Below, in pieces: positions 1 through 33,100 of a stretch of DNA of 37,921 nucleotides. The position numbers and the translations under genes were made by a program. The DNA lies in IMG/VR virus record IMGVR_UViG_2734482770_000007, one strand, 5' to 3'. Under the pieces are notes generated by a model that did not search any database, was not told the origin of the DNA, and saw only the letters and a list, made by a program, of their open reading frames with translations. This DNA is from a virus (Duplodnaviria > Heunggongvirae > Uroviricota > Caudoviricetes). Every line of letters starts with the position of its first letter. Positions within the stretch are counted from its first letter, which is position 1.

Positions 1-1053
1 TTACGGGGTAATGCCAACCGCTGCCGCCACTTTGTCGCCACTTGGCAGCGTTGCCAGAGGATTGAAACGGAGCGCCGTTTCTAGATGATCCGGTGCCAGA
101 TGTGCGTAACGCATAGTCATTTTTATATCGTGGTGTCCGAGAATTTTTTGTAAGGCCAGAATGTTTCCACCCGACATCATGAAGTGCGCCGCAAACGTAT
201 GGCGCAGAACGTGTGTGAGTTGACCGCGAGGGAGCACGATAGACGTTTTTTCCATCACGGATAAAAATTGAAAATAGCAGTCTGTGAAGAAATTGAACCC
301 ATCAAGCGCCATGATCTCTTCGTAAAGCTCTTTACTGATAGGGATGCTTCTGTTTTTCTTCCCCTTCGTTCTGACAAAGGTAATTCGGTATTTGGTCACC
401 TGTGAGCGGGTAAGATTTACGGCTTCACGCCAGCGTGCGCCTGTGCTTAAGCATATCTTAACTACCAGTGCCAGAATTGGGTCCTGACGTTTGCAATCAG
501 CCAGCAATTCAACAATCTGCTCATGGGTAAGCCATGCCATCTCTTTTTCTGCGATGGTGAATTTTCGCATGTTCTCCAGTGGGTTCGGATACGACCATTC
601 GCCCAGACGGGATAGTTCGCTAAAAACACTACTTAGATAGCTTTGCTCCAGGTTAATGGTGACCGGGCTTGCTCCTTTCTTCCATTTCTCGCTGAAGTAG
701 ATCTCGCCTGTCAGGCGTTTATCTCGATAGTGGGCAAACATTTTAGAGGTGAGATCGGTTGCAAGAGGATTGCCCAGAGCGTCAACCATCAACAGCAATT
801 TGTCATAGACATGCTGCCCAGCTGTCAGAGATTTACCATGTAGTTTGAACCATAGCTCAACCACGTCTTTCAGTGTTCGACGATCCACTGATTCACCCAG
901 CCAGGGCTTTGCTTCGGTTTCTTCCATCGTGTGGCGCTCAAAAGCCAGTGCTTCGCCTTTGGTGGCGAATTGTTTACGCACACGACGCCCACTTCGTCCG
1001 GCGGGGTAACATTCGCAAAGCCATTTCCCTGTGGTTAGTTTTCGTACTGCCAT
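1..1053 (-). CDS. int: Tyrosine integrase, P2/186 family
   Basis: 350-aa ORF ending at window edge; C-terminal catalytic region with R..HxxR..Y signature (LRHTFAAHF, HHDIKMTMRYAHL); sits next to a cI-type repressor as in P2/186 prophages. Confidence 0.9.
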   Translation of the reverse strand: MAVRKLTTGKWLCECYPAGRSGRRVRKQFATKGEALAFERHTMEETEAKPWLGESVDRRTLKDVVELWFKLHGKSLTAGQHVYDKLLLMVDALGNPLATDLTSKMFAHYRDKRLTGEIYFSEKWKKGASPVTINLEQSYLSSVFSELSRLGEWSYPNPLENMRKFTIAEKEMAWLTHEQIVELLADCKRQDPILALVVKICLSTGARWREAVNLTRSQVTKYRITFVRTKGKKNRSIPISKELYEEIMALDGFNFFTDCYFQFLSVMEKTSIVLPRGQLTHVLRHTFAAHFMMSGGNILALQKILGHHDIKMTMRYAHLAPDHLETALRFNPLATLPSGDKVAAAVGITP

Positions 1054-1135: not shown

Positions 1136-2812
1136 CTAAGCAACATGTAGTTCATCGTTGGCGGAAGTGGCTGCTTTGCGCTCCTGCTCAATAGCTAGAG
1201 ACTCTCTATATTCTTTCGCCTCTGCAAACATTGTCCAGTGGGCGTTGATGTTCATGTCTTCAATAACTGATTTGATTTCTTTTAAATTTACGTTAAAAAA
1301 CTCTTTTCGTGAGTTAATTTTATTGACCTGCTTTTCGTTGAAAACTTTATGCAGATGGTTTTCTAATGATGGTGCATCATCACTATAAATCATCGCATGA
1401 ACATCGAACGAAAAAGGAACACTAGCATCTCCGAGTTCACGAACACGATCAAGTGGTTCAAGGCGGCGTGTCATTCCAATTTTATATACATCTTCGCCAA
1501 ATGAACCAATATTACTAATGATATAGACGTGGCCTGATCTGGTTTGTTGAGCCATAGAAATAGCTCGTTGATTTTTAGCTTCAGCTTCTTCATATTTTAA
1601 CTGTAGTTCAGCTATTTTTTGCTCTAAAGCTAAGCGTTGTTCTTCATTTGCAAGCATAAGTTCTTTCGTTGCTTTATTTATAGCTTGCTGAATAGCTTTT
1701 TCTTCTTTTTCAGCTTCTTTTATCGCTTTTTCATATTCTCTACGAGCTCTTTCCTCTTCACGAAGCTGTTCTTTAATCCTTCTTTGCTCTTCTTTTTCTT
1801 CGAGCATAATTTCATTAACTGCTACACCCCATTTTAGCTCGTTGAGTCTTGCCTGAAGATAGATGTCACTTATTTTTGCGGACCTAAAGGCAGAGCCATT
1901 GTAATTTACTAGTTGAAATGCATCTTTTATTTCTTGGGAAAGTTTTCCAAAATTGTTGTGTTTGACTTTTGATAAAATACTGTCAACTCTTCCATTGAAG
2001 GCATCCAAAACAAAGTTTATGGCAGTATTACGCCTGTTTTGCTCAACATAATCACACGAAGCAGCTTTATTAGTTTTTATTAATGATTTGGTTAACTCTC
2101 TGGCTTTTTGTAATTCCTTGCCTGCATCTGTAAATTCATAATTTTCTGCCAGCTCATCAAGTACACTACGGTTAGGGATGATCCATTCATCACCATAACC
2201 TTCAATTTTATTTTTCATTGATTTTGCAACTGCTTCATATTTTTCTGCAAACTCTTTAGCTTCATATGCTGAACCAGCAATCTCCTTTGCTCTTTCTTCT
2301 GCATCAGAAATAATTTTTACTGCATTGTCATTAGCATTTGAGATTAGCTCATTTGCTTTATTATTAGCATTATCAAGACGTTCTTTGGCTTTCAGGCGTG
2401 CATCGCGAGCGTCTTTGGTGATTGCTATAGCTTCGCTATTAGCGTTGCTTATTGTCATCTGAGCTTGATAATTTGCTTCGTTTACTGTTTTAGCCGCCTT
2501 AATTTGGGCTTCATCTATTTTTTGCTTGGCTATTGAGTCCGCATTTTTTATCTTATTCTCTGCATCCATTACTGCGCTGTGCAATTCTTCGTATTGCCAC
2601 AATGGTGCTGCTCGCCCTTCAAGCTCTGATAATTCTCGTACGGTCTGTGCTAGTTTTTCTTGATTTTCAATCAGTTGGTTAGAAAGGGCTATGTTGTTAG
2701 CTGTCAGGTTATCTATAGCCGCTTTGTGTTTTTTACTTTGTTTAAATAATATTACAGCTAGAACAGGGGCGAGAAATGCTAATAAGAGTATAACGATGGC
2801 AAATGAATTCAT
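1136..2812 (-). CDS. Cargo (moron) protein: N-terminal transmembrane helix, long coiled coil, C-terminal T5orf172/GIY-YIG-like domain (DUF4041-type architecture)
   Basis: 558-aa ORF; N-terminus FAIVILLLAFLAPVLAVILF is hydrophobic; central region is Ala/Lys/Glu-rich heptad-like; C-terminus has GHVYIISN...YKIGMT resembling GIY-YIG/T5orf172 motifs. Visibly AT-rich versus backbone. Inserted between cI and int where 186/P2 have no gene. Confidence 0.6.
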   Translation of the reverse strand: MNSFAIVILLLAFLAPVLAVILFKQSKKHKAAIDNLTANNIALSNQLIENQEKLAQTVRELSELEGRAAPLWQYEELHSAVMDAENKIKNADSIAKQKIDEAQIKAAKTVNEANYQAQMTISNANSEAIAITKDARDARLKAKERLDNANNKANELISNANDNAVKIISDAEERAKEIAGSAYEAKEFAEKYEAVAKSMKNKIEGYGDEWIIPNRSVLDELAENYEFTDAGKELQKARELTKSLIKTNKAASCDYVEQNRRNTAINFVLDAFNGRVDSILSKVKHNNFGKLSQEIKDAFQLVNYNGSAFRSAKISDIYLQARLNELKWGVAVNEIMLEEKEEQRRIKEQLREEERARREYEKAIKEAEKEEKAIQQAINKATKELMLANEEQRLALEQKIAELQLKYEEAEAKNQRAISMAQQTRSGHVYIISNIGSFGEDVYKIGMTRRLEPLDRVRELGDASVPFSFDVHAMIYSDDAPSLENHLHKVFNEKQVNKINSRKEFFNVNLKEIKSVIEDMNINAHWTMFAEAKEYRESLAIEQERKAATSANDELHVA

Positions 2813-20483: not shown

Positions 20484-20922
20484 ACTGCAGAAAGTGGACG
20501 ACTGGCTGAGTGCCTTGCTGGCGAATCTGGAGCCAGCCGCAAGAAGCCGCATGATGCGCCAGCTGGCGCAGGAACTGCGCCGGATACAGCAGCAGAACAT
20601 CAGGATGCAACGCAATCCAGATGGCAGTAGTTATGAACCGCGACGGGTAACAGCACGCAGTAAAAAGGGGCGCATCAAACGTCAGATGTTTGCAAAGCTG
20701 CGAACCACAAAATACCTGAAAACTGCCGCCAGCGCCGATTCTGCCAGCGTGCAGTTTGAAGGCAAGGTACAGCGCATTGCCCGTGTTCACCATTACGGCT
20801 TGCGTGATCGCGTCAGCCGTAAGGGGCCACAGATACGTTATGCTAAACGTAGGTTACTTGGAATTTATGATACTGATTTTGATATTATAGAAGAGATAAT
20901 CATAAATTTTTTGATTCGTTAG
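20476..20922 (+). CDS. S: Tail completion protein (P2 gpS family)
   Basis: 148 aa; synteny and size; 3' end overlaps convergent cargo gene. Confidence 0.75.
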   Translation: MAELQKVDDWLSALLANLEPAARSRMMRQLAQELRRIQQQNIRMQRNPDGSSYEPRRVTARSKKGRIKRQMFAKLRTTKYLKTAASADSASVQFEGKVQRIARVHHYGLRDRVSRKGPQIRYAKRRLLGIYDTDFDIIEEIIINFLIR

Positions 20923-22081
20923 ATTCATTAATTTTCTTAAAGTATGAGTCTATTTTTTCAATTAATAAATTGATGCTTTTTATAAATTCTTTTGTTTCTT
21001 TCTCTGTTGGTTCATGTGATGTATGAGCTATTTTGTCACGTAATTCTTTCCTGTTTTTATTTGCATGTTGCCACTCAAGTGGCGCAATTTCGGGTACAGA
21101 GATGTTAAAGAGTTGTTTGAATAGTTTTTTACATCTATCATCGAACTTCCAGTTTTTATTTAATGTTTCTTTTGTCTGGCATTCATTGATACCATTGCGA
21201 TGAAAGGCATTAATAATTTTTCTGAGAATATAGCTTTCAAGGCCTGCTGATGCTTCAATTACGGCTGATCTAAATGCACCTTTATGAACAAGATTGTCTG
21301 CTCTAATCAATAATAGTTCAGGATGTTCATTGAATTCATTTGACATTAAACGTTTTTTGAAATTATCAATGAGACTTTCATCGTGTTTATACCAGCTTTC
21401 TCTCATTAATGGGGTGATTACTCCAACTAAAGGAATTGCACTTATCTTAATACCATCGCAATAATGCTCTTGTAACACTCCGTTGGTAAATCCTGAGCCA
21501 ACTTGATAAAGAGATATCTCGTCTGCAAATTGATCTTTAAAGGCAACTCTATACTGTTTTATAAAGTGGTTTATTATTCCGATACATTCCTCTGATCTTT
21601 TAGGTGGAAATATCTCTCTAGCAGTTTTTATTTTTCTCTCTAACTCTATTTTTTTATCTATATCTTGCTGGCTCATTTTGGATAGGAGCATCTCAGCATC
21701 TTCCACAGATGGGAAGTTATCTTCTTTCCTTATTTGGTTTCTTATAGAGTTGATTAGTTCTTCATGTGATATTTCTAAAAGGTCAAAACATTCCCAATAG
21801 TTGGCGAGAGAAATAATAGTCCGGCATTTCATTATCCCTCTTTCATTTGTGTGATGTGGTAGTAGTTGTTCTCTGGTACCGATTAATAGGGTTTGAGGGA
21901 ATAAGCTTGCATCTTTAAATAGTGCATAGTAATCGTTGTGAACTGTTAAGCGTAAATGGTTATTTTCATATAGAAAATCATAATCACCATCTGGAATATT
22001 GAGGACATAAGGCAACTCGACCAAGTAACGTGCAGCAAAGATCATTTCAGTCATCTCCATATGAGAATTCAATTGTGCCAA
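20900..22081 (-). CDS. Cargo protein of unknown function in the S-V (orf30-equivalent) locus; C-terminal HEPN-like Rx4H motif
   Basis: 393-aa ORF, strongly AT-rich by eye, antisense to flanking late genes; C-terminal KELRDKIAHTSHEP fits R-x4-H; no other recognisable motif. Confidence 0.7.
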   Translation of the reverse strand: MAQLNSHMEMTEMIFAARYLVELPYVLNIPDGDYDFLYENNHLRLTVHNDYYALFKDASLFPQTLLIGTREQLLPHHTNERGIMKCRTIISLANYWECFDLLEISHEELINSIRNQIRKEDNFPSVEDAEMLLSKMSQQDIDKKIELERKIKTAREIFPPKRSEECIGIINHFIKQYRVAFKDQFADEISLYQVGSGFTNGVLQEHYCDGIKISAIPLVGVITPLMRESWYKHDESLIDNFKKRLMSNEFNEHPELLLIRADNLVHKGAFRSAVIEASAGLESYILRKIINAFHRNGINECQTKETLNKNWKFDDRCKKLFKQLFNISVPEIAPLEWQHANKNRKELRDKIAHTSHEPTEKETKEFIKSINLLIEKIDSYFKKINESNESKNL

Positions 22082-23966: not shown

Positions 23967-24564
23967 TCTGCTGCCACCGGGTTCAACTTCACTGGAGCGC
24001 CGACTGGCGCAAACCTGTAGCGGGATTTCTGATCTGCAGGTGCCGCTGCGTGACTTGTGGAATCCGGCTACCTGTCCGGTCAGCTTCCTGCCTTATCTCG
24101 CCTGGGCGTTCTCTGTGGATCGCTGGGACGAGGGCTGGACAGAAAGCGTCAAACGCCAGGTAGTGAAGGATGCTTTTTATATTCATCAGCATAAAGGGAC
24201 CACCAGTGCCGTGCGGCGGGTGGTGGAGCCGTTCGGCTTTCTGATCCGCATTATTGAGTGGTGGCAGACCGGAGAGGCACCGGGCACGTTTCGCCTGGAT
24301 ATCGGCGTGCAGGACCAGGGCATCACTGAAGATACCTATCTGGAACTTGAGCGACTGATAAGCGATGCCAAACCATGTAGCCGCCACATGATCGGCATGT
24401 CCATCAATCTGCAGACCAGCGGCCCGCATTGGGTGGGAGCCGCCAGCTATCTTGGTGAAGAAATCACGATCTATCCGTATATCAACGAAACAATTATTTC
24501 CGGCGGCACCGCGCATGAAGGCGGGGCGGTCCATGTTATTGACACAATGAGAGTGAATCCATGA
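23959..24564 (+). CDS. I: Baseplate/tail-fibre attachment protein (P2 gpI family)
   Basis: 201 aa; overlaps J stop and H start. Confidence 0.75.
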   Translation: MNSLLPPGSTSLERRLAQTCSGISDLQVPLRDLWNPATCPVSFLPYLAWAFSVDRWDEGWTESVKRQVVKDAFYIHQHKGTTSAVRRVVEPFGFLIRIIEWWQTGEAPGTFRLDIGVQDQGITEDTYLELERLISDAKPCSRHMIGMSINLQTSGPHWVGAASYLGEEITIYPYINETIISGGTAHEGGAVHVIDTMRVNP

Positions 24565-26045
24565 GCACAAAATTTTATACCCTGCTGACGGATATTGGCG
24601 CGGCGAAACTTGCCAGCGCCGCCGCGCTCGGTGTGCCGCTAAAAATTACCCATATGGCGGTGGGCGATGGCGGCGGAGCATTGCCGACGCCGGACGCAAA
24701 GCAGACGGCACTGGTAAATGAGAAACGCCGGGCTGCGCTGAATATGCTCTATATCGACCCGCAGAACAGCAGCCAGATTATTGCTGAACAGGTGATCCCT
24801 GAAAATGAGGGTGGTTGGTGGATACGTGAAGTGGGTCTGTTTGATGAGTCCGGGGCATTGATTGCCGTAGGCAACTGCCCGGAAAGCTATAAGCCGCAAC
24901 TGGCTGAAGGCAGCGGGCGCACCCAGACCGTGCGCATGGTGCTGATTACCAGCAGCACGGACAATATCACCCTGAAAATCGACCCTGCCGTCGTGCTGGC
25001 AACCCGCAAGTATGTGGATGACAAGGTACTGGAGCTGAAGGTGTTCGTGGATGATAAGATGGCAAAACATCTTGCCGCACCGGACCCGCATTCACAGTAT
25101 GCATCTAAAGAAAGCCCGACATTGACCGGAACACCCAAAGCGCCAACGCCAGCGGAGGGGAATAACACCACGCAGATTGCGACCACCGCGTTTGTTCAGG
25201 CCGCTATTACTGCTCTGATTAACGGTGCGCCAGCCACGCTGGACACACTGAAAGAAATTGCCGCAGCCATTAACAATGACCCGAAATTCAGTACCACCAT
25301 TAACAATGCGCTGGCACTAAAAGCACCGCTGTCGAGTCCGGCACTCACCGGAACGCCAACAGCACCTACTGCGGCACAGTCGGTCAACAATACACAGATT
25401 GCCACTACAGCTTTTGTGAAATCAGCGATTGCAGCAATGGTGGGTTCTGCACCTGCGGCACTGGATACACTGAACGAACTGGCGGCGGCGCTGGGGAATG
25501 ACCCGAACTTTGCCACGACAATGCTTAATGCACTGGCAGGTAAACAACCGCTGGACAATACGCTGACTAATTTGAGTGGAAAGGATGTAGCTGGTCTTCT
25601 CACATACCTTCAATTGGGAGAAGCGGCAAAACGGGATGTCGGAACCGGTAATAATCAACTCCCGGACATGTCCGCATTTGGTATGTCGCGAAACGGACAA
25701 ACTACCTGGGATATTCTCCCAAATGGTATGATTCGACAGGCTGGCACTGTGACACTGACACCAGTTGGTAACTTCAACTCGCAGGTGCTTGGTGGGGTGA
25801 CGTACTACACCCATTACTACAGGGTTAATTTCCCCAGACAATTCCCAAATGCACAAATAGCAACGCTGGCAACACTAGCGAGTTACAGCTATTCGACCCA
25901 GGCAACAATGGCCGGAAAATCACTGGCAACGCATCGCGATACTGATTCTGGCACTGACGTATCAAGAACGCGATTCACTGTGGCGTATACGACACCCAAT
26001 CTCGGCGAAACACCGACACTGCATTTTGAAGCAATAGGATACTAA
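24561..26045 (+). CDS. H: Tail fibre protein (P2 gpH family), C-terminal domain within invertible segment
   Basis: 494 aa; internal tandem fibre repeats; hix-like crossover site at codons 346-354. Confidence 0.85.
   Translation: MSTKFYTLLTDIGAAKLASAAALGVPLKITHMAVGDGGGALPTPDAKQTALVNEKRRAALNMLYIDPQNSSQIIAEQVIPENEGGWWIREVGLFDESGALIAVGNCPESYKPQLAEGSGRTQTVRMVLITSSTDNITLKIDPAVVLATRKYVDDKVLELKVFVDDKMAKHLAAPDPHSQYASKESPTLTGTPKAPTPAEGNNTTQIATTAFVQAAITALINGAPATLDTLKEIAAAINNDPKFSTTINNALALKAPLSSPALTGTPTAPTAAQSVNNTQIATTAFVKSAIAAMVGSAPAALDTLNELAAALGNDPNFATTMLNALAGKQPLDNTLTNLSGKDVAGLLTYLQLGEAAKRDVGTGNNQLPDMSAFGMSRNGQTTWDILPNGMIRQAGTVTLTPVGNFNSQVLGGVTYYTHYYRVNFPRQFPNAQIATLATLASYSYSTQATMAGKSLATHRDTDSGTDVSRTRFTVAYTTPNLGETPTLHFEAIGY
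25113..25556 (+). repeat. Tandem in-frame repeat (two copies of about 74 codons) within tail fibre gene
   Basis: Protein segments SPTLTGTPKAP...NNTTQIATTAFVQAAI...LDTLKEIAAAINNDPKF and SPALTGTPTAP...NNTQIATTAFVKSAI...LDTLNELAAALGNDPNF are clearly paralogous. Confidence 0.55.
25597..25622. promoter_or_regulatory. hix/gix-like 26-bp invertase crossover site (left), core TT
   Basis: TTCTCACATACC TT CAATTGGGAGAA; imperfect dyad resembling Hin hixR; inverted partner at 27131-27156 (19 of 26 identical in inverted orientation). Confidence 0.55.
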
Positions 26046-26047
26046 AT

Positions 26048-26281
26048 ATGGAGAATATCTATTTCAGCCCAACGACCGTTGGTTTTTATGTTTCTGAACA
26101 AGAGCGACCTGATGATGCGGTTGAAGTCTCGCCAGAGGTGGAGGCATTTTTGAGGGAGTGTGTTATCTGGGGAGCGGATACATTTAACGTAGAGCGAGAT
26201 GCAGCAACGGTGACATATCCAACAGAACTGCTTGAATATGTCACCACCTACAACGCCCCCGTTAAATATCCTGCGGATTGA
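26048..26281 (+). CDS. Small protein immediately downstream of H, possible fibre chaperone for current orientation
   Basis: 77-aa ORF starting 2 nt after H stop (TAA-NN-ATG), same arrangement as the inverted cassette; no recognisable tfa motif. Confidence 0.4.
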   Translation: MENIYFSPTTVGFYVSEQERPDDAVEVSPEVEAFLRECVIWGADTFNVERDAATVTYPTELLEYVTTYNAPVKYPAD

Positions 26282-26672
26282 CAGGCCATACGGGTTTGGC
26301 TGTATCAACGCGCATCAGCAAGACCCGGTATTTTTTCCATTCAGATAACGCGGCGGTTTCTTCTGCCGTCGCGATTTCCGCATCAAAAGCATCCTGTCTC
26401 CAGACTATTTCCTTATCAGCCATAGAACGCAATACCGTTCTTTTCTGTTCAGCCTGAATAATCTGTTGTTCAGCGGAGAGTGGCGGGATATCAATCCACT
26501 CAGGATTACCATTTTTATCAGCCCCCAGCGTTTTGCCTTGTGGCGCTACGCCTGTGTAAATTGCCATTGTTTCATCATCAACATCAACGCCATTTTCAGG
26601 CCATGAACCGGCGCTGATATATACCTCTTTTAGTGCTTTCGGATAGAAAGAGCCTTTATAAAATTTATTCAT
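26262..26672 (-). CDS. Tail fibre assembly protein (Tfa), paired with the alternative fibre cassette
   Basis: C-terminal [32 protein letters not shown] matches conserved Tfa C-terminus (lambda Tfa [27 protein letters not shown]); start taken at ATG 26672, 2 nt after cassette stop (track start 26702). Confidence 0.7.
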   Translation of the reverse strand: [136 protein letters not shown]

Positions 26673-26674
26673 TC

Positions 26675-27184
26675 TTAATACCCCAGCGCGATAAAACAAC
26701 AATCTTCGGTGCCCTCTCCGGATGGCGACCAGTTCTGAATACTGATATGCGTTCTGCTGGCAATACGCACATTCATCGCGGCATTGTAGCCAGATGTTCC
26801 ACGGTTTCCGGTCGCAAATAAGCCTGCATAGGGAAAAGCAAATGGTAAGGCATATCCAGCATCAGCTCCCTTTTGTGTTGCCACCGTTCCCCACTGCAAC
26901 ATAAGTTTCACCGGGTTTCCTGTCGTCGCAATGCATGGAATGTAGATGTAGCCATTCCCTGACATCATTGACCTGAAGCTATCTAAATCCAGTAACTTCG
27001 AGGCATTATCTGCTCCAACATCTCGTGTTGCGGCGGTCCCTAACTGGAGCGTATTTCGGAAGGCTGATACATCAGAAATATCAGCTCCATTAGCCGATTT
27101 CTGCATAGCTCCGGAGGCTTTATTTATCGTTTCTCCCAAACCAACGTTTATGAAAATGCAGAGATAACGGCTAACTGGCATCAT
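26675..27184 (-). CDS. Alternative tail-fibre C-terminal cassette (promoterless in this orientation)
   Basis: Minus-strand ORF with LQLGTAATRDVG paralogous to H YLQLGEAAKRDVG; contains hix-like site near its 5' end, in the same codon phase as the site in H, so inversion would fuse it in frame to H codons 1-354. Confidence 0.6.
   Translation of the reverse strand: MMPVSRYLCIFINVGLGETINKASGAMQKSANGADISDVSAFRNTLQLGTAATRDVGADNASKLLDLDSFRSMMSGNGYIYIPCIATTGNPVKLMLQWGTVATQKGADAGYALPFAFPYAGLFATGNRGTSGYNAAMNVRIASRTHISIQNWSPSGEGTEDCCFIALGY
27131..27156. promoter_or_regulatory. hix/gix-like 26-bp invertase crossover site (right), core AA
   Basis: TTCTCCCAAACC AA CGTTTATGAAAA; about 20 of 26 match to Hin hixL as recalled (TTCTTGAAAACCAAGGTTTTTGATAA). 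Confidence 0.6.
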
Positions 27185-27205
27185 CTCCGGTTTTTATTCA
27201 GGGGG

Positions 27206-27777
27206 ATGATCATGCTTATTGGCTATGTACGCGTGTCAACAAATGACCAGAACACCGATTTGCAACGCAATGCACTGAACTGTGCGGGATGTGAGCGGAT
27301 TTTTGAGGATAAAATCAGTGGCACCAAGTCCGACAGACCGGGGCTGAAAAAGCTGCTCAGGACACTATCGGCAGGAGACACGCTGGTTGTCTGGAAGCTG
27401 GACAGACTGGGCGCAGTATGCGGCATCTTGTTACGCTGATAGAAGCGCTGCGCCAGCGTGGCGTGAATTTCCGAAGCCTGACTGACAGTATTGATACCAG
27501 CACCCCAATGGGCCGTTTCTTTTTTCATGTCATGGGTGCCCTGGCTGAAATGGAACGCGAACTGATAGTTGAACGTACCAGGGCGGGGCTGGCTGCAGCT
27601 CGTGCTAAAGGCAGAGTAGGTGGACGCCGTCCTAAGTTGACCAGCGAACAGTGGTCACAGATTGGGCGTTTACTCGAGGCCGGAGAATCAAGACAGCGTA
27701 TTGCACTGATTTTTGATGTAGGCGTTTCTACCATTTATCGAAAATTTCCGGCAAATAAGAACAATAAATCTCCCTGA
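27206..27777 (+). pseudogene. Serine DNA invertase (Hin/Gin/Cin/Pin family) disrupted by a 1-nt frameshift
   Basis: Two ORFs (27206..27439, 27418..27777) together align with Hin: MLIGYVRVSTNDQN (catalytic Ser), VVWKLDRLG then frame change to MRHLVTLIEAL...SLTDSIDTS...GRFFFHVMGALAEMERELIVERT...VSTIYR (HTH). Intact frame would need one extra base near 27412. Confidence 0.75.
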
Positions 27778-27825
27778 ATCAGCTTTATTTTGATTATCCC
27801 TGAAAGCAGACAAATACCGTCATTT

Positions 27826-27843
27826 TGTGTGAATAACGGTACA
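27826..27843. promoter_or_regulatory. Late-promoter activator box TGT-N12-ACA upstream of sheath gene
   Basis: TGTGTGAATAACGGTACA; near-identical in outline to the O-promoter box (TGTGTG...CGGTACA); about 85 nt upstream of FI start. Confidence 0.5.
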
Positions 27844-27919
27844 ACTGCGCTTAGCTGTTTGTCAGGCACAATCACTTCAACATAGGGCGAAGCCTAATCC
27901 AATCAGGAGGTTCGCCACT

Positions 27920-29092
27920 ATGGCTCAGGATTACCACCACGGGGTGCGCGTTGTTGAAGTCAACGAAGGCACCCGATCCATTACCACGGTGAGCACCGCC
28001 ATCGTGGGTATGGTCTGCACGGGCGATGATGCCGATGCAAAAATGTTTCCTCTTAATAAACCCGTGCTGATCACTGATGTGCTGACTGCCAGCGGTAAAG
28101 CGGGTGAGTCAGGCACGCTGGCTCGTTCGCTGGATGCCATCGCTGACCAGGCAAAACCCGTGACCGTTGTTGTGCGTGTGCCGCAGGGTGAAACGGAAGA
28201 AGAAACCACGACCAATATCATCGGAGCAGTGACCGCTGAAGGTAAAAAAACAGGCATGAAAGCCCTGTTATCTGCCCAGTCACAGCTCGGCGTTAAACCG
28301 CGCATTCTCGGCGTGCCAGGTCACGACACGAAGGCGGTAGCTACTGAGTTGCTGAGCGTGGCGCAAAGCCTGCGTGGATTTGCTTACCTGTCAGCGTATG
28401 GTTGCAAGACAGTGCAGGAAGCAATCACTTACCGTGAAAACTTCAGTCAGCGTGAAGGAATGCTGATCTGGCCCGACTTTACTGGCTGGGACACGGTGCT
28501 GAATGCCGAAGCAACGGCTTATGCCACCGCCCGTGCGCTTGGTCTGCGCGCCAAAATTGACGAGCAGACCGGATGGCACAAAAGCCTGTCCAACGTGGGC
28601 GTTAACGGTGTCACCGGAATTTCTGCTGATGTGTTCTGGGATCTGCAGGACCCGGCAACCGATGCGGGACTGCTGAACCAGAACGACGTCACCACCCTTA
28701 TCCGCAAAGACGGTTTTCGCTTCTGGGGTTCCCGCTGCCTGAGTGATGACCCGCTCTTTGCCTTCGAAAACTACACCCGCACGGCGCAGGTGCTGACGGA
28801 CACGATGGCAGAAGCGCACATGTGGGCGGTGGATAAACCGCTGAATCCGTCGCTGGCCCGCGACATTATCGAGGGTATCCGCGCCAAAATGCGCAGCCTG
28901 GTCAGTCAGGGCTATCTCATTGGTGGTGATTGCTGGCTGGATGAGTCGGTGAACGACAAAGACACGCTGAAAGCCGGAAAACTCACCATCGACTACGACT
29001 ACACGCCAGTGCCGCCACTTGAAAACCTGATGCTGCGTCAGCGCATCACCGATCAGTACCTGGTGAATTTCTCCAGCCAGGTCAGCGCGTAA
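27920..29092 (+). CDS. FI: Tail sheath protein (P2 gpFI family)
   Basis: 390 aa (P2 FI about 396); followed by tube gene. Confidence 0.9.
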
Positions 29093-29101
29093 GGGGACAA
29101 C

Positions 29102-29617
29102 ATGGCTTTACCACGCAAATTAAAACACCTGAACCTGTTTAATGACGGGAACAACTGGCAGGGGATCGTTGAGTCGCTGACGCTGCCGAAATTTACCCGC
29201 AAATATGAGAAGTATCGCGGCGGCGGAATGCCGGGTGCAGTGGATGTGGATCTGGGGCTGGATGACGGCGCACTGGATACGGAATTTTCCATTGGTGGTA
29301 CTGAACTGCTGCTGTTTAAGCAGATGGGCAAAGCCACGGTGGATGGTATCCAGTTGCGCTTTACCGGCTCTATCCAGCGTGACGATACCGGGGAAGTGCA
29401 GGCCGTGGAGCTTGTGGTGCGTGGACGTCACAAAGAAGTGGATTCCGGCGAGTGGAAGACGGGCGAAAGCAACACCACCAAAGTGACCAGTACCAACAGC
29501 TACGCGAAGCTGACTATAAATGGTGAGGTGCTCTATGAAGTGGACCTTATCAACATGGTGGAAATTGTGGACGGTGTGGACCTGATGGAAGCGCACCGCA
29601 ACGCCCTCGGCCTCTGA
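29102..29617 (+). CDS. FII: Tail tube protein (P2 gpFII family)
   Basis: 171 aa (P2 FII about 172). Confidence 0.9.
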   Translation: MALPRKLKHLNLFNDGNNWQGIVESLTLPKFTRKYEKYRGGGMPGAVDVDLGLDDGALDTEFSIGGTELLLFKQMGKATVDGIQLRFTGSIQRDDTGEVQAVELVVRGRHKEVDSGEWKTGESNTTKVTSTNSYAKLTINGEVLYEVDLINMVEIVDGVDLMEAHRNALGL

Positions 29618-29671
29618 TGTATCTGAACGGCGCGGGATACCGCGCCAGAACCCAATTTACAGGACAGCAAA

Positions 29672-29974
29672 ATGAGCGATAAGCAGACTGAAAAGACTAT
29701 TCAACTGGATACCCCCATCAAGCGCGGTAAAACAGAAATCACCGAAATTGTGCTGCGTAAACCGCAGTCCGGTGCGCTGCGCGGTACACGCCTGCAGGCC
29801 ATTATGGATATGGATGTGAACGCGATGATGACCGTGATCCCCCGCATCTCCAGTCCGGCACTGACTGCACAGGAAATTGCAGAGATGGACCCGGCAGATC
29901 TCACTGCCATGTCGGTTGAGGTTGTCACTTTTTTGTTGAAGAAGTCGGTGCTTGCCGGTTTACCGACAGCCTGA
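29672..29974 (+). CDS. E: Tail assembly chaperone E
   Basis: 100-aa ORF between tube and tape-measure genes; contains slippery T TTT TTG near 3' end. Confidence 0.8.
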   Translation: MSDKQTEKTIQLDTPIKRGKTEITEIVLRKPQSGALRGTRLQAIMDMDVNAMMTVIPRISSPALTAQEIAEMDPADLTAMSVEVVTFLLKKSVLAGLPTA

Positions 29975-30108
29975 CGGTTGACGATCTGGTGGCTGATATC
30001 GCCACCATCTTTCACTGGCCGCCATCCGTTACTGACGTTATGCCGCTGACCGAAGTGCTGGAATGGCGGTATAAAGCGATTCAGAGAAGCGGGGCCAACG
30101 ATGAGTGA
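29672..30108 (+). CDS. Tail assembly chaperone E+E' (-1 programmed frameshift product)
   Basis: Slippery heptamer T-TTT-TTG at 29929-29935 in zero-frame phasing; -1 frame is open for 58 codons (VEEVGACRFTD...AIQRSGANDE) and stops at 30106-30108, overlapping the T start codon. Confidence 0.6.
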
Positions 30109-33100
30109 TAATAACCTGCGCCTGCAGGTCATTCTTAATGCGGTTGACAAACTCACCCGCCCATTCCGTGCTGCACAGGCCAGTTCGAAAGAGCTGGCTG
30201 GCGCAATTCAGAATACCCGAAACAGCCTCAAAGAACTGAATAAGCAGGCTGGCAGAATTGATGAATTTCGCAAGACGCGCTCGCAACTAGCCATAACAGC
30301 CAACAACCTGAACGCAGCCCGCGAAGAGGCGGCAAAACTCGCCACACAATTTGCTGCCACTAACAGGCCAACCGCCGCGCAGGCAAAGTTATTCAGTCAG
30401 GCCAAAACACGAGTACAGGAACTTCAGCAGACCTATAACGGCTTGTTGGGGGCGGTCCAGAGACAACGTCAGGCACTTAAAGAATCAGGGATTGATACCA
30501 GACAACTCAGTAGTGCCCAGCGAGAACTTAAGAAAAATGCCGAAGAAACTCGTCAGGCACTGGAGGGCCAGCAAAAAGCACTTAAACGTCTGGGTGAACA
30601 ACAGGCACGGATGAACGCTGCCAGAGAACAATACTCAAGACGGCTTGAAGTGCGCGATCGCATCGCAGGAGCCGGAGCCACCACCACGGCTGCAGGGCTG
30701 GCAATGGGCGCGCCAGTGATGGCGGCGGTAAAAAGCTATACCAGCATGGAAGATGCCATGAAAGGTGTGGCAAAGCAGGTCAATGGTCTGCGTGACGATA
30801 ATGGCAACCGCACTGCGCGTTTTTACGAAATGCAGGATGCCATCAAAGCTGCCAGTGAACAGCTGCCAATGGAAAACGGTGCTGTGGACTTCGCCGCACT
30901 GGTTGAAGGTGGTGCGCGCATGAATGTGGCAAACCCTGACGACAGCTGGGAGGACCAGAAACGTGACCTGCTGGCCTTCGCCAGTACGGCAGCAAAGGCG
31001 GCAACAGCCTTTGAGCTGCCAGCGGATGAACTGTCAGAAAGTCTGGGGAAAATCGCCCAGCTCTACAAAATACCAACCCGCAATATTGAACAGCTCGGTG
31101 ATGCGCTGAACTATCTGGATGATAACGCTATGTCGAAAGGGGCAGACATCATTGATGTCATGCAACGCCTGGGCGGTGTGGCTGATCGTCTGGATTATCG
31201 TAAAGCGGCGGCGCTGGGTTCCACCTTCCTGACACTGGGGGCTGCGCCGGAGGTCGCTGCCAGTGCTGCCAACGCGATGGTGCGTGAATTGTCCATTGCG
31301 ACCATGCAAAGCAAGAGTTTCTTTGAAGGAATGAATCTGCTGAAACTCAATCCTGAAGTGATTGAAAAGCAGATGACGAAGGATGCGATGGGAACTATCC
31401 AGCGCGTACTGGAGAAGGTGAACGCACTGCCGCAGGATAAGCGCCTGTCTGCCATGACCATGTTGTTTGGTAAAGAGTTTGGCGATGATGCGGCGAAACT
31501 GGCAAACAACCTGCCGGAACTGCAGCGCCAGCTAAAACTGACAGCGGGCAATGATGCGCTCGGTTCGATGCAGAAAGAATCCGACATTAACAAGGACTCA
31601 CTTTCTGCGCAGTGGTTGCTGGTCAAAACCGGAGCGCAGAACACCTTCAGCAGCCTGGGCGAAACGCTGCGCCAGCCGCTGATGGATATTCTGTACACGG
31701 TGAAAAGCATCACGGGGGCGTTGCGTCGCTGGGTGGAAGCTAACCCTGAACTGACGGGCACACTGATGAAAGTAGCCGCGGTTGTGGCTGCTGTTACTGT
31801 GGGCCTCGGCACCCTGGCTGTGGTGTTGGCTGCTGTGCTGGGGCCGCTGGCAGTCATCCGTCTGGGATTCTCTGTGCTGGGTATCAAAACGTTACCTTCC
31901 GTTACGGCAGCAGTAACGCGAACAAGCAGCGCGTTGTCCTGGTTGGCTGGCGCACCACTTGCACTGCTGCGACGCGGGCTTGCTTCATCGGGCAACGCCG
32001 CAGGTTTACTTACTGCGCCGTTGTCGTCTTTGCGCCGCACGGCATCACTGACGGGAAATGTCCTGAAAACTGTAGCAGGTGCGCCGGTTGCACTTTTGCG
32101 GTCTGGATTATCCGGTTTACGTGCTGTTGCTGTGATGTTTATGAATCCTCTGGCGGTACTGCGCGGTGGACTGGCCTCCGCAGGCACGGTGCTGCGAGTA
32201 CTGGCATCTGGTCCACTGGCGATGCTGCGCGTTGCCCTGTATGCCGTATCTGGTCTGTTAGGTGCTCTGCTCAGTCCGATAGGTCTTGTGGTTACTGCAC
32301 TGGCGGGCGTGGCGCTGGTTGTCTGGAAATACTGGCAACCCATCACCGCATTTCTTGGTGGCGTAGTGGAAGGATTCAAAGCGGCGGCAGGTCCCGTCAG
32401 TGCAGCATTCGAACCGCTTAAGCCCGTGTTCCAGTGGATTGGCGACAAAGTACAGGCGCTGTGGGGCTGGTTTACTGATCTGCTGACGCCCGTTAAGTCG
32501 ACCTCTGCCGAACTGCAGAGTGCAGCGGCAATGGGGCGACGATTCGGGGAGGCACTGGCGGAAGGGCTGAATATGGTCATGCATCCGCTGGACTCCCTGA
32601 AATCCGGCGTTTCCTGGTTGCTGGAGAAACTCGGCATTGTCAGTAAAGAGGCTGCAAAGGCGAAACTGCCGGAAAGAGTGACGCGTCAGCAACCTGCGAC
32701 GGTGAATGCAGACGGTAAAGTGATGATGCCACCGGGTGGTTTTCCGTCATGGGGATATGGCTTTGCGGGGATGTATGACAGCGGCGGCTATATCCCGCGC
32801 GGGCAGTTTGGCATCGTCGGTGAAAACGGGCCGGAAATTGTTAACGGCCCGGCAAATGTGACCAGCCGGAGAAATACAGCTGCACTGGCTGCCGTTGTTG
32901 CCGGAATGATGGGCGTTGCTGCCGCGCCTGCAGAGCTTCCACCATTGCATCCTTTGGCACTTCCCGCGAAAGGCGGCGAAGCGATGGTGAGTCGTGCAGC
33001 CACTGTACCGCCCGTTCACCGGATTGAGGCACCGACGCAGATCATCATTCAGACGCAGCCAGGACAAAGTGCGCAGGATATTGCGCGGGAGGTGGCACGC

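What the first reader, a model, noticed from the sequence alone, without database searches (positions are those of the whole stretch)
25597..27777. Hin/Gin-type invertible tail-fibre switch with a frameshifted invertase
Two 26-bp imperfect dyads closely matching hix/gix crossover sites flank about 1.56 kb (25597-25622 with core TT, 27131-27156 with core AA, in inverted orientation). The left site lies inside tail-fibre gene H at codons 346-354; the right lies at the 5' end of a minus-strand fibre C-terminal cassette in the same codon phase, so inversion would swap the fibre C-terminus in frame. Each C-terminal cassette is followed by its own downstream ORF with an identical TAA-NN-ATG junction. 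The adjacent serine invertase is split by an apparent 1-nt deletion after the catalytic domain, suggesting the host-range switch is locked in the current orientation unless complemented in trans.
Basis: partly seen in the sequence, partly recalled or inferred. Interest (0 to 1): 0.7.

Follow-up and report, generated by a model that had tools for sequence, protein, structure and literature searches.

The report
Invertible phage tail-fibre switch, broken invertase
This is an ordinary Gin/Hin-type DNA flip-switch that swaps the tip of a P2-like prophage tail fibre in E. coli; its own flipping enzyme gene carries a real 1-base deletion, yet near-identical isolates carry the segment in both orientations, so the switch is not locked.

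Summary
Two 26-bp hix/gix-like dyads (25597-25622, core TT; 27131-27156, core AA) bracket a 1,536-bp segment. Flipping it in silico fuses tail-fibre gene H in frame to a silent minus-strand C-terminal cassette, giving 505 aa instead of 494. Both orientations occur in complete E. coli genomes (33 vs 14), and the junctions swap exactly at the 2-bp core. The adjacent invertase is 73% identical to Mu Gin and is split by loss of one G from a GGGG run. The break lies inside the catalytic domain, not after it.

The "locked" reading is not supported. The frameshift is real, being present in at least 24 independent contigs. One sequencing run gives an exact match to the window over 6.6 kb. Another gives an exact match to the in-silico inverted window, frameshift included. 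Inversion therefore happened after the frameshift, most likely through a second Pin/Gin-family invertase acting in trans, a known cross-reaction.

The same deletion recurs on three diverged invertase alleles but is rare: no full-length exact match in 5,426 complete genomes.

Verdict: a known kind of system, well characterised, with a mildly interesting natural case of inversion without the element's own invertase. Low to moderate interest.

The parts
24561..26045 (+). Tail-fibre gene H as currently assembled (494 aa). The constant part is 24561-25608 and the exchangeable C-terminal cassette is 25609-26045.
   Evidence: ORF. Pfam Phage_tail_fib N-terminal domain (E 7.7e-65) and Gp53-like_C. Annotated as phage tail protein in relatives.
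25597..25622 (.). Left crossover site TTCTCACATACC-TT-CAATTGGGAGAA, with the core at 25609-25610.
   Evidence: The junction comparison of the two natural orientations places the exchange between positions 12 and 15 of the site, i.e. in the TT core.
25609..27144 (.). Invertible segment, 1,536 bp from core to core.
   Evidence: The in-silico inverted sequence is found collinear at 97-98% identity in at least 10 complete E. coli genomes. It is found exactly in Logan contig SRR9002381_44.
26048..26281 (+). 77-aa ORF downstream of the active cassette, a candidate short tail-fibre assembly or chaperone protein.
   Evidence: No Pfam hit. Only its first 31 residues match phrog_188, tail fibre assembly (E 9e-5). 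The exact sequence is on at least 1000 contigs of Enterobacteriaceae. Function is inferred from position only.
26262..26672 (-). Tail-fibre assembly gene (136 aa from the ATG at 26672) belonging to the silent cassette. Its 3' end overlaps ORF77 convergently by 20 nt.
   Evidence: Pfam Caudo_TAP E 8.9e-31. phrog_188 E 2.4e-41. Annotated as tail fiber assembly protein in relatives.
26675..27145 (-). Silent alternative fibre C-terminal cassette (156 codons plus stop), in the same codon phase as H at the core.
   Evidence: Pfam Gp53-like_C E 1.7e-8. In-frame 505-aa fusion. The 505-aa form is annotated in EM06-18-14 and the exact product is on 2 Logan contigs.
27131..27156 (.). Right crossover site TTCTCCCAAACC-AA-CGTTTATGAAAA, with the core at 27143-27144. 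It lies 68 bp upstream of the invertase ATG.
   Evidence: Its inner half-site plus core is identical to 14 of the 16 nt of the e14 P-segment repeat CCTTCTCCCAAACCAA (PMC12529663). The geometry matches Mu, where the G-segment boundary is 67 bp upstream of the gin start.
27212..27439 (+). Invertase N-terminal fragment: 69 native residues including the Ser9 nucleophile motif VRVST, then 6 out-of-frame residues and a stop.
   Evidence: Pfam Resolvase model positions 2-76. Alignment with intact relatives.
27409..27411 (+). GGG run where intact relatives have GGGG. This is the 1-nt deletion that shifts the frame inside the DRLGRS motif.
   Evidence: Alignment. The same deletion is present in L005-L010 and L014-L023.
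27418..27777 (+). Invertase C-terminal fragment ORF (119 aa): the rest of the catalytic domain, the E-helix and the HTH_7 DNA-binding domain.
   Evidence: Pfam Resolvase 79-144 and HTH_7. The repaired protein is 137/188 identical to Mu Gin and scores E 7.7e-93 against Gin structure 3UJ3.
27233..27296 (.). Candidate Fis-dependent recombinational enhancer inside the 5' end of the invertase gene. The candidate 15-bp cores are GTGTCAACAAATGAC (27233-27247) and GTGCGGGATGTGAGC (27282-27296).
   Evidence: Inferred by homology only. There are no indels relative to gin. The proximal G-N13-C core sits 96.5 bp from the crossover core, against 95 bp in Mu. The distal core was read by eye from the alignment printed. 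The sequence is also constrained by coding for the catalytic motif, so its conservation is not independent evidence.

Best explanation
The locus is a Gin/Hin/Pin-type (Din family) site-specific inversion switch in the tail module of a P2-like prophage of E. coli.

How it works:
- A small serine invertase acts on two 26-bp sites in inverted orientation and exchanges strands at a 2-bp TT/AA core. This flips 1,536 bp.
- The flip replaces the last 145 codons of tail-fibre gene H, plus a 77-aa downstream ORF, with an alternative 156-codon Gp53-like C-terminus and its Caudo_TAP assembly protein.
- This presumably changes receptor specificity.

In this lineage the element's own invertase gene is inactivated by a genuine 1-nt deletion in a GGGG run within the catalytic domain. 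The segment has nevertheless inverted since that mutation. Most probably a second Pin/Gin-family invertase, encoded elsewhere in the host genome, acted in trans on sites that closely match the e14 pix sites.

Shown: the sites, the in-frame fusion, both orientations in nature, the crossover at the core, the reality of the frameshift, and inversion after the frameshift.

Inferred: the identity of the trans-acting enzyme, Fis/enhancer dependence, and the host-range consequence.
For: Sites and in-frame fusion.

Both orientations occur in complete E. coli genomes. 33 records hold at least 80% of the window orientation and 14 hold the inverted form. In those inspected (L001-L004) the invertase is an intact 188-aa gene.

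The junction sequences of EC3 versus EM06-18-14 differ exactly on either side of the TT/AA core. They do not break in the longer 9-nt identity block TTGGGAGAA, which is where homology-driven exchange would be expected.

Invertase identity: Resolvase plus HTH_7 domains. It is 73% identical to Mu Gin with E 7.7e-93 against 3UJ3. The Fis-contact residues Q/R/L and the helix-B basic residues that PMC3798978 describes as unique to Fis-dependent invertases are conserved.

The frameshift is real. The exact 119-aa fragment is on 9 contigs. The exact 75-aa fragment was read on 24 contigs and is listed in 35 index blocks.

Inversion happened after the frameshift. L015 equals window 24012-30639 exactly, and L017 equals the in-silico inverted window exactly, frameshift included. 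SRR23641888 differs from the window at 1 of 20,360 nt.

A trans enzyme is plausible. 4,680 of 5,426 complete E. coli genomes have an invertase homologue, with a median of 2 places per genome. The closest complete relative, GF124.3, has 2. As summarised in PMC12529663, PinE, PinQ and PinR all invert the same e14 segment, Fin of the Fels-2 prophage inverts the Salmonella H segment, and PinE inverts the Mu G segment. The window's right site contains the e14 repeat TTCTCCCAAACCAA.
Against: No second invertase lies within the 37.9-kb window. Only one Resolvase-domain gene was seen (not every ORF was scanned). The rest of the host genome could not be read, so the trans-acting enzyme is not identified.

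The same deletion recurs on three diverged alleles. Independent recurrence in both orientations of one clone is therefore unlikely but not impossible.

An intact version of this very allele exists on one Logan contig. Its context could not be fetched.

The effect on host range has not been tested anywhere for these particular cassettes.
Confidence: 0.75

Rival explanations
1. The frameshift has killed the only available invertase, so the segment is frozen in the present orientation in this lineage.
For: The deletion removes the Arg of the DRLGRS motif and splits the catalytic domain. By established knowledge of resolvase catalytic residues, this Arg corresponds to gamma-delta/Tn3 resolvase R71. 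No second invertase lies in the window. 7 of the 9 contigs with the exact 119-aa fragment are in the window orientation.
Against: Two contigs with the identical frameshifted allele are in the opposite orientation. One of them matches the in-silico inversion exactly over 6,628 nt.
Confidence: 0.1
2. The frameshifted gene still yields a trace of full-length invertase. One route is a -1 slip of tRNA-Gly on G_GGC, which would restore exactly ...LGRSM...; another is transcriptional slippage. That trace would be enough for slow inversion in cis.
For: A -1 shift at CUG-GGC would regenerate the wild-type protein sequence, as read from the sequence. Invertases act at very low levels. The allele persists in many assemblies.
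Against: There is no canonical slippery heptamer. The RNA downstream of the slip site shows no exceptional structure: z = 0.62, and 144 of 200 shuffles fold at least as well. A run of three G is too short for known transcriptional slippage. The allele is rare: there is no full-length exact match in 5,426 complete genomes. That rarity fits sporadic loss rather than a maintained programmed device.
Confidence: 0.08
3. The orientation polymorphism predates the frameshift. The same G deletion arose independently in cells of each orientation, because the run is a mutational hot spot, and no inversion has occurred since.
For: The identical deletion is found on three invertase alleles that differ at about 4% of sites, with allele-specific SNPs 2-3 nt away from it. 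This points to recurrence rather than spread by recombination.
Against: The two orientations are otherwise identical over 6.6 kb, including the private GAG>GCG change 37 nt downstream of the deletion. The deletion is rare overall, so two hits in one clone are improbable.
Confidence: 0.05
4. The 1-nt deletion is a sequencing or assembly artefact and the invertase is intact.
For: It lies in a homopolymer. No complete RefSeq E. coli genome shows it.
Against: It was recovered independently in Logan assemblies of at least 6 different sequencing runs, in 2 ENA metagenome assemblies and in several NCBI draft assemblies, always at the same position. More than 750 other genomes with the same local sequence read GGGG, so the context is not systematically mis-read.
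Confidence: 0.03

Closest known systems
Phage Mu G segment with the Gin invertase
   Same: The architecture matches: tail-fibre gene S with a constant N-terminus, two C-terminal cassettes each followed by an assembly gene (U and U'), and the invertase immediately downstream on the plus strand. The repaired invertase is 73% identical to Gin. The site-to-start distance is 68 bp here against 67 bp in Mu. The 26-bp dyad sites are of similar form.
   Different: The segment is half the size (1.5 kb against about 3 kb). The core dinucleotide is TT/AA, as in hix, rather than TC/GA. The cassettes are Gp53-like_C domains. One downstream ORF is a 77-aa protein without a Caudo_TAP domain. The host element is P2-like, not Mu. 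The invertase here is frameshifted.
e14 P segment with PinE (also inverted by PinQ and PinR) in E. coli K-12
   Same: It is a tail-fibre C-terminus swap of about 1.8 kb. The published crossover repeat CCTTCTCCCAAACCAA (PMC12529663) shares 14 of 16 nt with the window's right site, including the AA core. The segment is inverted by several different invertases acting in trans.
   Different: e14 is a defective lambdoid element. Its stf/tfa cassettes are different genes. PinE is intact in K-12.
Invertible tail-fibre loci of P2-like prophages (E. coli EPEC E2348/69; Fels-2 Fin in Salmonella; invertase genes annotated in phages Cartapus, pro483 and 500465-1)
   Same: It is the same phage family and the same position, between H and the sheath gene FI. 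Phase variation of P2-like prophage loci was shown by sequencing in EPEC (PMC4272514). DNA-invertase genes next to tail-fibre genes are annotated in P2-like phage records that match the window.
   Different: No paper found here describes this particular cassette pair (Gp53-like_C with ORF77, and Gp53-like_C with Caudo_TAP). The EPEC shufflon-like locus has three repeats where this one has two. The window's allele carries the frameshift.
Salmonella Hin/hix flagellar switch
   Same: It uses a Fis/enhancer-dependent serine invertase, 26-bp sites with an AA/TT core, and an enhancer inside the 5' end of the invertase gene about 100 bp from the nearer site (PMC3798978). Hin is backed up in trans by the prophage invertase Fin.
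   Different: Hin flips a promoter and lies inside its own invertible segment. Here the invertase is outside the segment and the flip exchanges coding sequence.

Membership tests
Din family (Gin/Hin/Cin/Pin) DNA inversion systems | A small serine recombinase with an N-terminal resolvase catalytic domain carrying the Ser nucleophile and a C-terminal HTH_7 domain, closely related to Gin, Hin, Cin or Pin. | tested here: met
   The Pfam Resolvase and HTH_7 domains are spread over the two fragments. The VRVST motif is present. The repaired protein is 137/188 identical to Mu Gin and scores E 7.7e-93 against 3UJ3.
Din family (Gin/Hin/Cin/Pin) DNA inversion systems | An intact, translatable invertase gene in the element. 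| tested here: not met
   A 1-nt deletion in the GGGG run at 27409-27411 splits the gene into 75-aa and 119-aa ORFs. The gene is intact (188 aa) in relatives L001-L004.
Din family (Gin/Hin/Cin/Pin) DNA inversion systems | Two 26-bp imperfect-dyad crossover sites in inverted orientation, with matching non-palindromic 2-bp cores. | tested here: met
   The sites are at 25597-25622 (core TT) and 27131-27156 (core AA). The right site fits the gix/hix dyad pattern with 1 mismatch, against 0.11 matches expected by chance. The inner half of the left site is degenerate.
Din family (Gin/Hin/Cin/Pin) DNA inversion systems | The segment actually inverts, with strand exchange at the core dinucleotide. | tested here: met
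   Both orientations occur in complete genomes, 33 against 14. The junctions swap at the core. An exact in-silico inversion product is found in SRR9002381. This is comparative evidence, not a measurement within one culture.
Din family (Gin/Hin/Cin/Pin) DNA inversion systems | A Fis-bound recombinational enhancer in cis, and invertase residues that contact Fis and the enhancer. | tested here: inconclusive
   Candidate Fis cores sit at the same positions as in gin. The Q-x-x-R-L patch and the helix-B K/K/R residues are conserved relative to Gin (residues as defined in PMC3798978). Fis binding and dependence cannot be tested here. The DNA is also constrained by its coding function.
Phage tail-fibre host-range switches (Mu G, P1 C, e14 P type) | Inversion exchanges the C-terminal receptor-binding part of a tail-fibre gene in frame, together with a cognate assembly gene. 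| tested here: met
   The products are 494 aa in one orientation and 505 aa in the other. Both cassettes carry Gp53-like_C. Caudo_TAP follows one cassette. ORF77, which follows the other, has only a weak tail-fibre-assembly-like N-terminus.
Phage tail-fibre host-range switches (Mu G, P1 C, e14 P type) | The two orientations confer different adsorption specificities. | not testable with these tools
   This needs phage induction and plating or adsorption assays with each orientation.
P2-like (Peduoviridae) prophage | P2 gene order: integrase ... V-W-J-I-H-(G)-FI-FII-E-T-U-D-ogr. | tested here: met
   The Pfam families of the called genes on the near-identical contig run in this order: Phage_base_V, GPW_gp25, Baseplate_J, Tail_P2_I, Phage_tail_fib, sheath, tube, PhageMin_Tail, GpU, GPD, Ogr_Delta. 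The integrase is at window 1-1053.

The most novel reading that the evidence does not exclude
The G-run in the invertase gene may be a recurrent, possibly reversible (GGGG<->GGG) mutational off-switch layered on top of the inversion switch. The same deletion sits on three diverged alleles, and an intact copy of the window's own allele also exists. Under this reading, prophage tail-fibre switching in such lineages is run by the host's pool of other invertases or by low-level frameshift read-through, rather than being lost.
Probability: 0.07. Interest if true: 0.5.

Novelty: new member of a known kind. Interest (0 to 1): 0.27.

Why it matters
The locus itself adds nothing conceptually new. Gin/Hin/Pin-type tail-fibre switches are textbook systems, and their presence and activity in P2-like E. 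coli prophages has been published.

Two points have practical value.
- An apparently dead invertase next to an invertible segment should not be annotated as a locked switch. Here, natural isolates with the identical pseudogene differ by a clean site-specific inversion. This fits the known cross-reactivity of Din-family invertases and recent work in which several Pin enzymes invert one segment.
- The case gives a simple way to find natural trans-complementation in public read archives: an exact-match test against an in-silico inverted sequence.

Tried and rejected
- An exact search of GTDB species-representative genomes for the deletion-bearing 48-mer found nothing.
- I looked for a complete E. 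coli genome with the deletion, to inspect its other invertases. There was no full-length exact match for either allelic version. The trans-acting enzyme therefore could not be identified.
- I tried to fetch the one contig carrying the intact version of the window's allele (P0032).
- I tested for an RNA structure that might stimulate programmed frameshifting. There was no signal.
- The promoter scan of 25900-27950 found no sigma-70-like site, so it says nothing about invertase expression.
- A simple Fis-motif scan finds the proximal core at the Mu-equivalent position. It cannot separate enhancer conservation from coding constraint.
- Two reviews or papers I wanted for hix and enhancer details (PMC4384473, PMC1347348) are not held.
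- Homology-driven (RecA-type) inversion was considered and rejected. The exchange maps to the 2-bp core, not to the longest shared 9-nt block.


Full report
**What is in the sequence**

Window 24.5-28 kb is the tail-fibre end of a P2-like prophage. The whole window runs from the integrase (1-1053, minus strand) to ogr and the host genes ybjL, ybjM and grxA.

- Gene H (24561-26045, 494 aa) has the Phage_tail_fib N-terminal domain and a Gp53-like_C C-terminus.
- A 77-aa ORF follows it after TAA-AT-ATG (26048-26281).
- Converging on that ORF from the minus strand are a 136-aa Caudo_TAP tail-fibre assembly gene (26262-26672) and, upstream of it after TAA-GA-ATG, a second Gp53-like_C cassette (26675-27145).
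- Next comes a serine invertase gene on the plus strand (27212-27777), then the sheath gene FI (27920-29092).

**The sites**

- Left: 25597-25622 = TTCTCACATACC-TT-CAATTGGGAGAA.
- Right: 27131-27156 = TTCTCCCAAACC-AA-CGTTTATGAAAA.
- They are the longest inverted repeat in the region.
- The right site fits a generic gix/hix dyad (TTNNNNNAAACCNNGGTTTNNNNNAA) with one mismatch. Only 0.11 matches at <=2 mismatches are expected in a window of this composition.
- The left site has one good half, the constant H side, and one degenerate half.
- The Mu gix sites read from the Mu record are TTATCCAAAACC-TC-GGTTTACAGGAA and TTCCTGTAAACC-GA-GGTTTTGGATAA.
- The published e14 P-segment repeat is CCTTCTCCCAAACCAA (PMC12529663). 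It shares 14 of 16 nt with the window's right site, including the AA core.

**In-frame swap**

Reverse-complementing 25609-27144 joins codon 349 of H to the minus-strand cassette without a stop. The result is a 505-aa protein ending ...IALGY, against ...EAIGY for the present form.

**Does it invert in nature?**

Yes.

- A megablast of window 25300-27900 against 5,426 complete E. coli genomes finds 33 records that hold at least 80% of it collinearly.
- The in-silico inverted version finds 14. Ten of these show 100% coverage in a single piece at 96.8-98.4% identity.
- In strain EM06-18-14, RefSeq annotates a 1,518-nt (505-aa) H gene followed by the 136-aa assembly gene. ORF77 and the other cassette are on the minus strand.
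- I compared EC3 (window orientation) with EM06-18-14 (inverted). Sequence left of the core stays and sequence right of the core is exchanged. The informative positions bracket the crossover to the TT/AA dinucleotide.
- A homology-driven exchange would be expected in the longer shared block TTGGGAGAA instead. The breakpoint is therefore the signature of a serine invertase.

**The invertase**

- Relatives have an intact 188-aa gene.
- The window lacks one G of a GGGG run, at 27409-27411.
- This yields a 75-aa product (69 native residues including the VRVST nucleophile motif) and a 119-aa ORF.
- Pfam places the break between Resolvase model positions 76 and 79 of 145. That is inside the catalytic domain, in the conserved DRLGRS motif, not after it.
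- By established knowledge of resolvase catalysis, the lost Arg corresponds to gamma-delta/Tn3 resolvase R71. Neither fragment, nor the pair together, is expected to be active (inference).
- The repaired protein is 137/188 identical to Mu Gin and scores E 7.7e-93 against Gin structure 3UJ3.
- It keeps the Q-x-x-R-L patch and the basic helix-B residues. PMC3798978 describes these as unique to Fis/enhancer-dependent invertases.
- The distance from the right core to the start codon is 68 bp, against 67 bp in Mu.
- A G-N13-C, A/T-centred candidate Fis core lies 96.5 bp from the crossover core, against 95 bp in Mu. The motif definition is from PMC4784862.
- The enhancer is inferred, not shown.

**Is the frameshift real?**

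- The exact 119-aa fragment is called on 9 contigs: Logan assemblies of different SRA runs and two ENA metagenome assemblies.
- The exact 75-aa fragment was read on 24 contigs and is listed in 35 index blocks, including NCBI draft genomes.
- All of those inspected have GGG.
- More than 750 complete genomes with the same local sequence have GGGG, so the context is not systematically mis-read.
- The deletion is therefore a real but rare allele. No full-length exact match exists among complete genomes.

**Is the switch locked?**

No.

- Among contigs with the identical frameshifted allele, L005/L015 (SRR23641888) match window 24012-30777 exactly.
- L007/L017 (SRR9002381) match the in-silico inverted window exactly over the same span, deletion and the neighbouring private GAG>GCG change included.
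- L006/L016 (SRR12827226) is also inverted.
- The SRR23641888 contig differs from the window at 1 of 20,360 nt, so these are one clone.
- A single cell acquires the deletion in one orientation. The other orientation must therefore have arisen afterwards by a clean site-specific inversion.
- The simplest source is another Din-family invertase in the host.
  - 4,680 of 5,426 complete E. coli genomes have a homologue, with a median of two places per genome.
  - Cross-action is well documented. PinE, PinQ and PinR all invert the e14 segment, Fels-2 Fin inverts the Salmonella H segment, and PinE inverts Mu G (PMC12529663).
- I could not read the rest of these genomes, so the enzyme is not identified.

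**Alternatives considered**

- Read-through by a -1 slip on G_GGC would restore the native sequence. There is no slippery heptamer, however, and no unusual downstream RNA structure (z = 0.62).
- Independent recurrence of the deletion in both orientations is conceivable. The same deletion occurs on three alleles that differ at about 4% of sites, with allele-specific SNPs 2-3 nt away from it. It is nevertheless improbable within one otherwise identical clone, given the allele's rarity.
- A sequencing artefact is excluded by the many independent assemblies.

**Comparison with what is known**

The organisation matches Mu G/Gin, e14 P/Pin and the P2-like prophage loci. Those loci were shown to phase-vary in EPEC E2348/69 (PMC4272514). 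P2-like phage records matching the window already annotate a DNA invertase beside the fibre genes: Cartapus, pro483 and 500465-1.

The locus is thus a new member of a well-known kind. Its small points of interest are:
- the natural evidence for inversion without the element's own enzyme;
- the recurrence of one particular frameshift;
- the 77-aa partner ORF, which lacks a recognisable assembly-protein domain.

Noticed in passing
L014, L019, L021, L022, L023 (invertase genes), compared with window 27409-27411: The identical GGGG>GGG deletion is present on three invertase alleles that differ from each other at about 4% of nucleotides. They sit next to different fibre cassettes (Collar-domain, 469-aa H). 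This suggests a recurrent mutational hot spot rather than one inherited event. An intact copy of the window's own allele exists on one Logan contig.
   Followed up: partly
window 1136-2812 (minus strand): A 558-aa protein next to the integrase, with T5orf172/MUG113 and DUF4041 domains. It matches the PADLOC model PD-Lambda-1 (E 2.4e-120), a candidate anti-phage defence gene carried by the prophage.
   Followed up: partly
window 20900-22081 (minus strand): A 381-393-aa ORF on the opposite strand, wedged between tail genes S and V. It has no Pfam hit above threshold and no PADLOC hit. It is also called as a gene on the Logan contigs. It may be a moron of unknown function.
   Followed up: partly
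window 20838-20863: A third gix/hix-like dyad, TTATGCTAAACG-TA-GGTTACTTGGAA, with 2 mismatches to the generic pattern, at the 3' end of gene S. Its TA core does not match the TT/AA cores, so it is probably a chance match or a relic.
   Followed up: no
window 25714-25723: An extra copy of the inner half-site, TTCTCCCAAA, lies inside the invertible segment. It is 91 nt from the left site and forms a 12-nt inverted repeat with it. It is a half-site only, with no dyad partner.
   Followed up: no
window 26048-26281: ORF77, downstream of the active cassette, has no Pfam family. Only its first 31 residues resemble tail-fibre assembly proteins (phrog_188, E 9e-5). It is nevertheless conserved on at least 1000 contigs across Enterobacteriaceae. 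It overlaps the convergent assembly gene by 20 nt (26262-26281).
   Followed up: partly
L006, locus positions about 2277-2632 (inverted-window coordinates 26694-27049): This inverted-orientation contig differs from the in-silico inverted window at 14 positions, all clustered within about 350 bp of the now-silent cassette. It looks like a gene-conversion patch from another prophage's cassette.
   Followed up: no
L019-L023 (contig ends): Several draft-assembly contigs that carry the frameshifted invertase end 370-1100 bp upstream of it, inside the invertible segment. The cause may be repeats shared with other prophages or mixed orientations in the sequenced cultures. This was not resolved.
   Followed up: no
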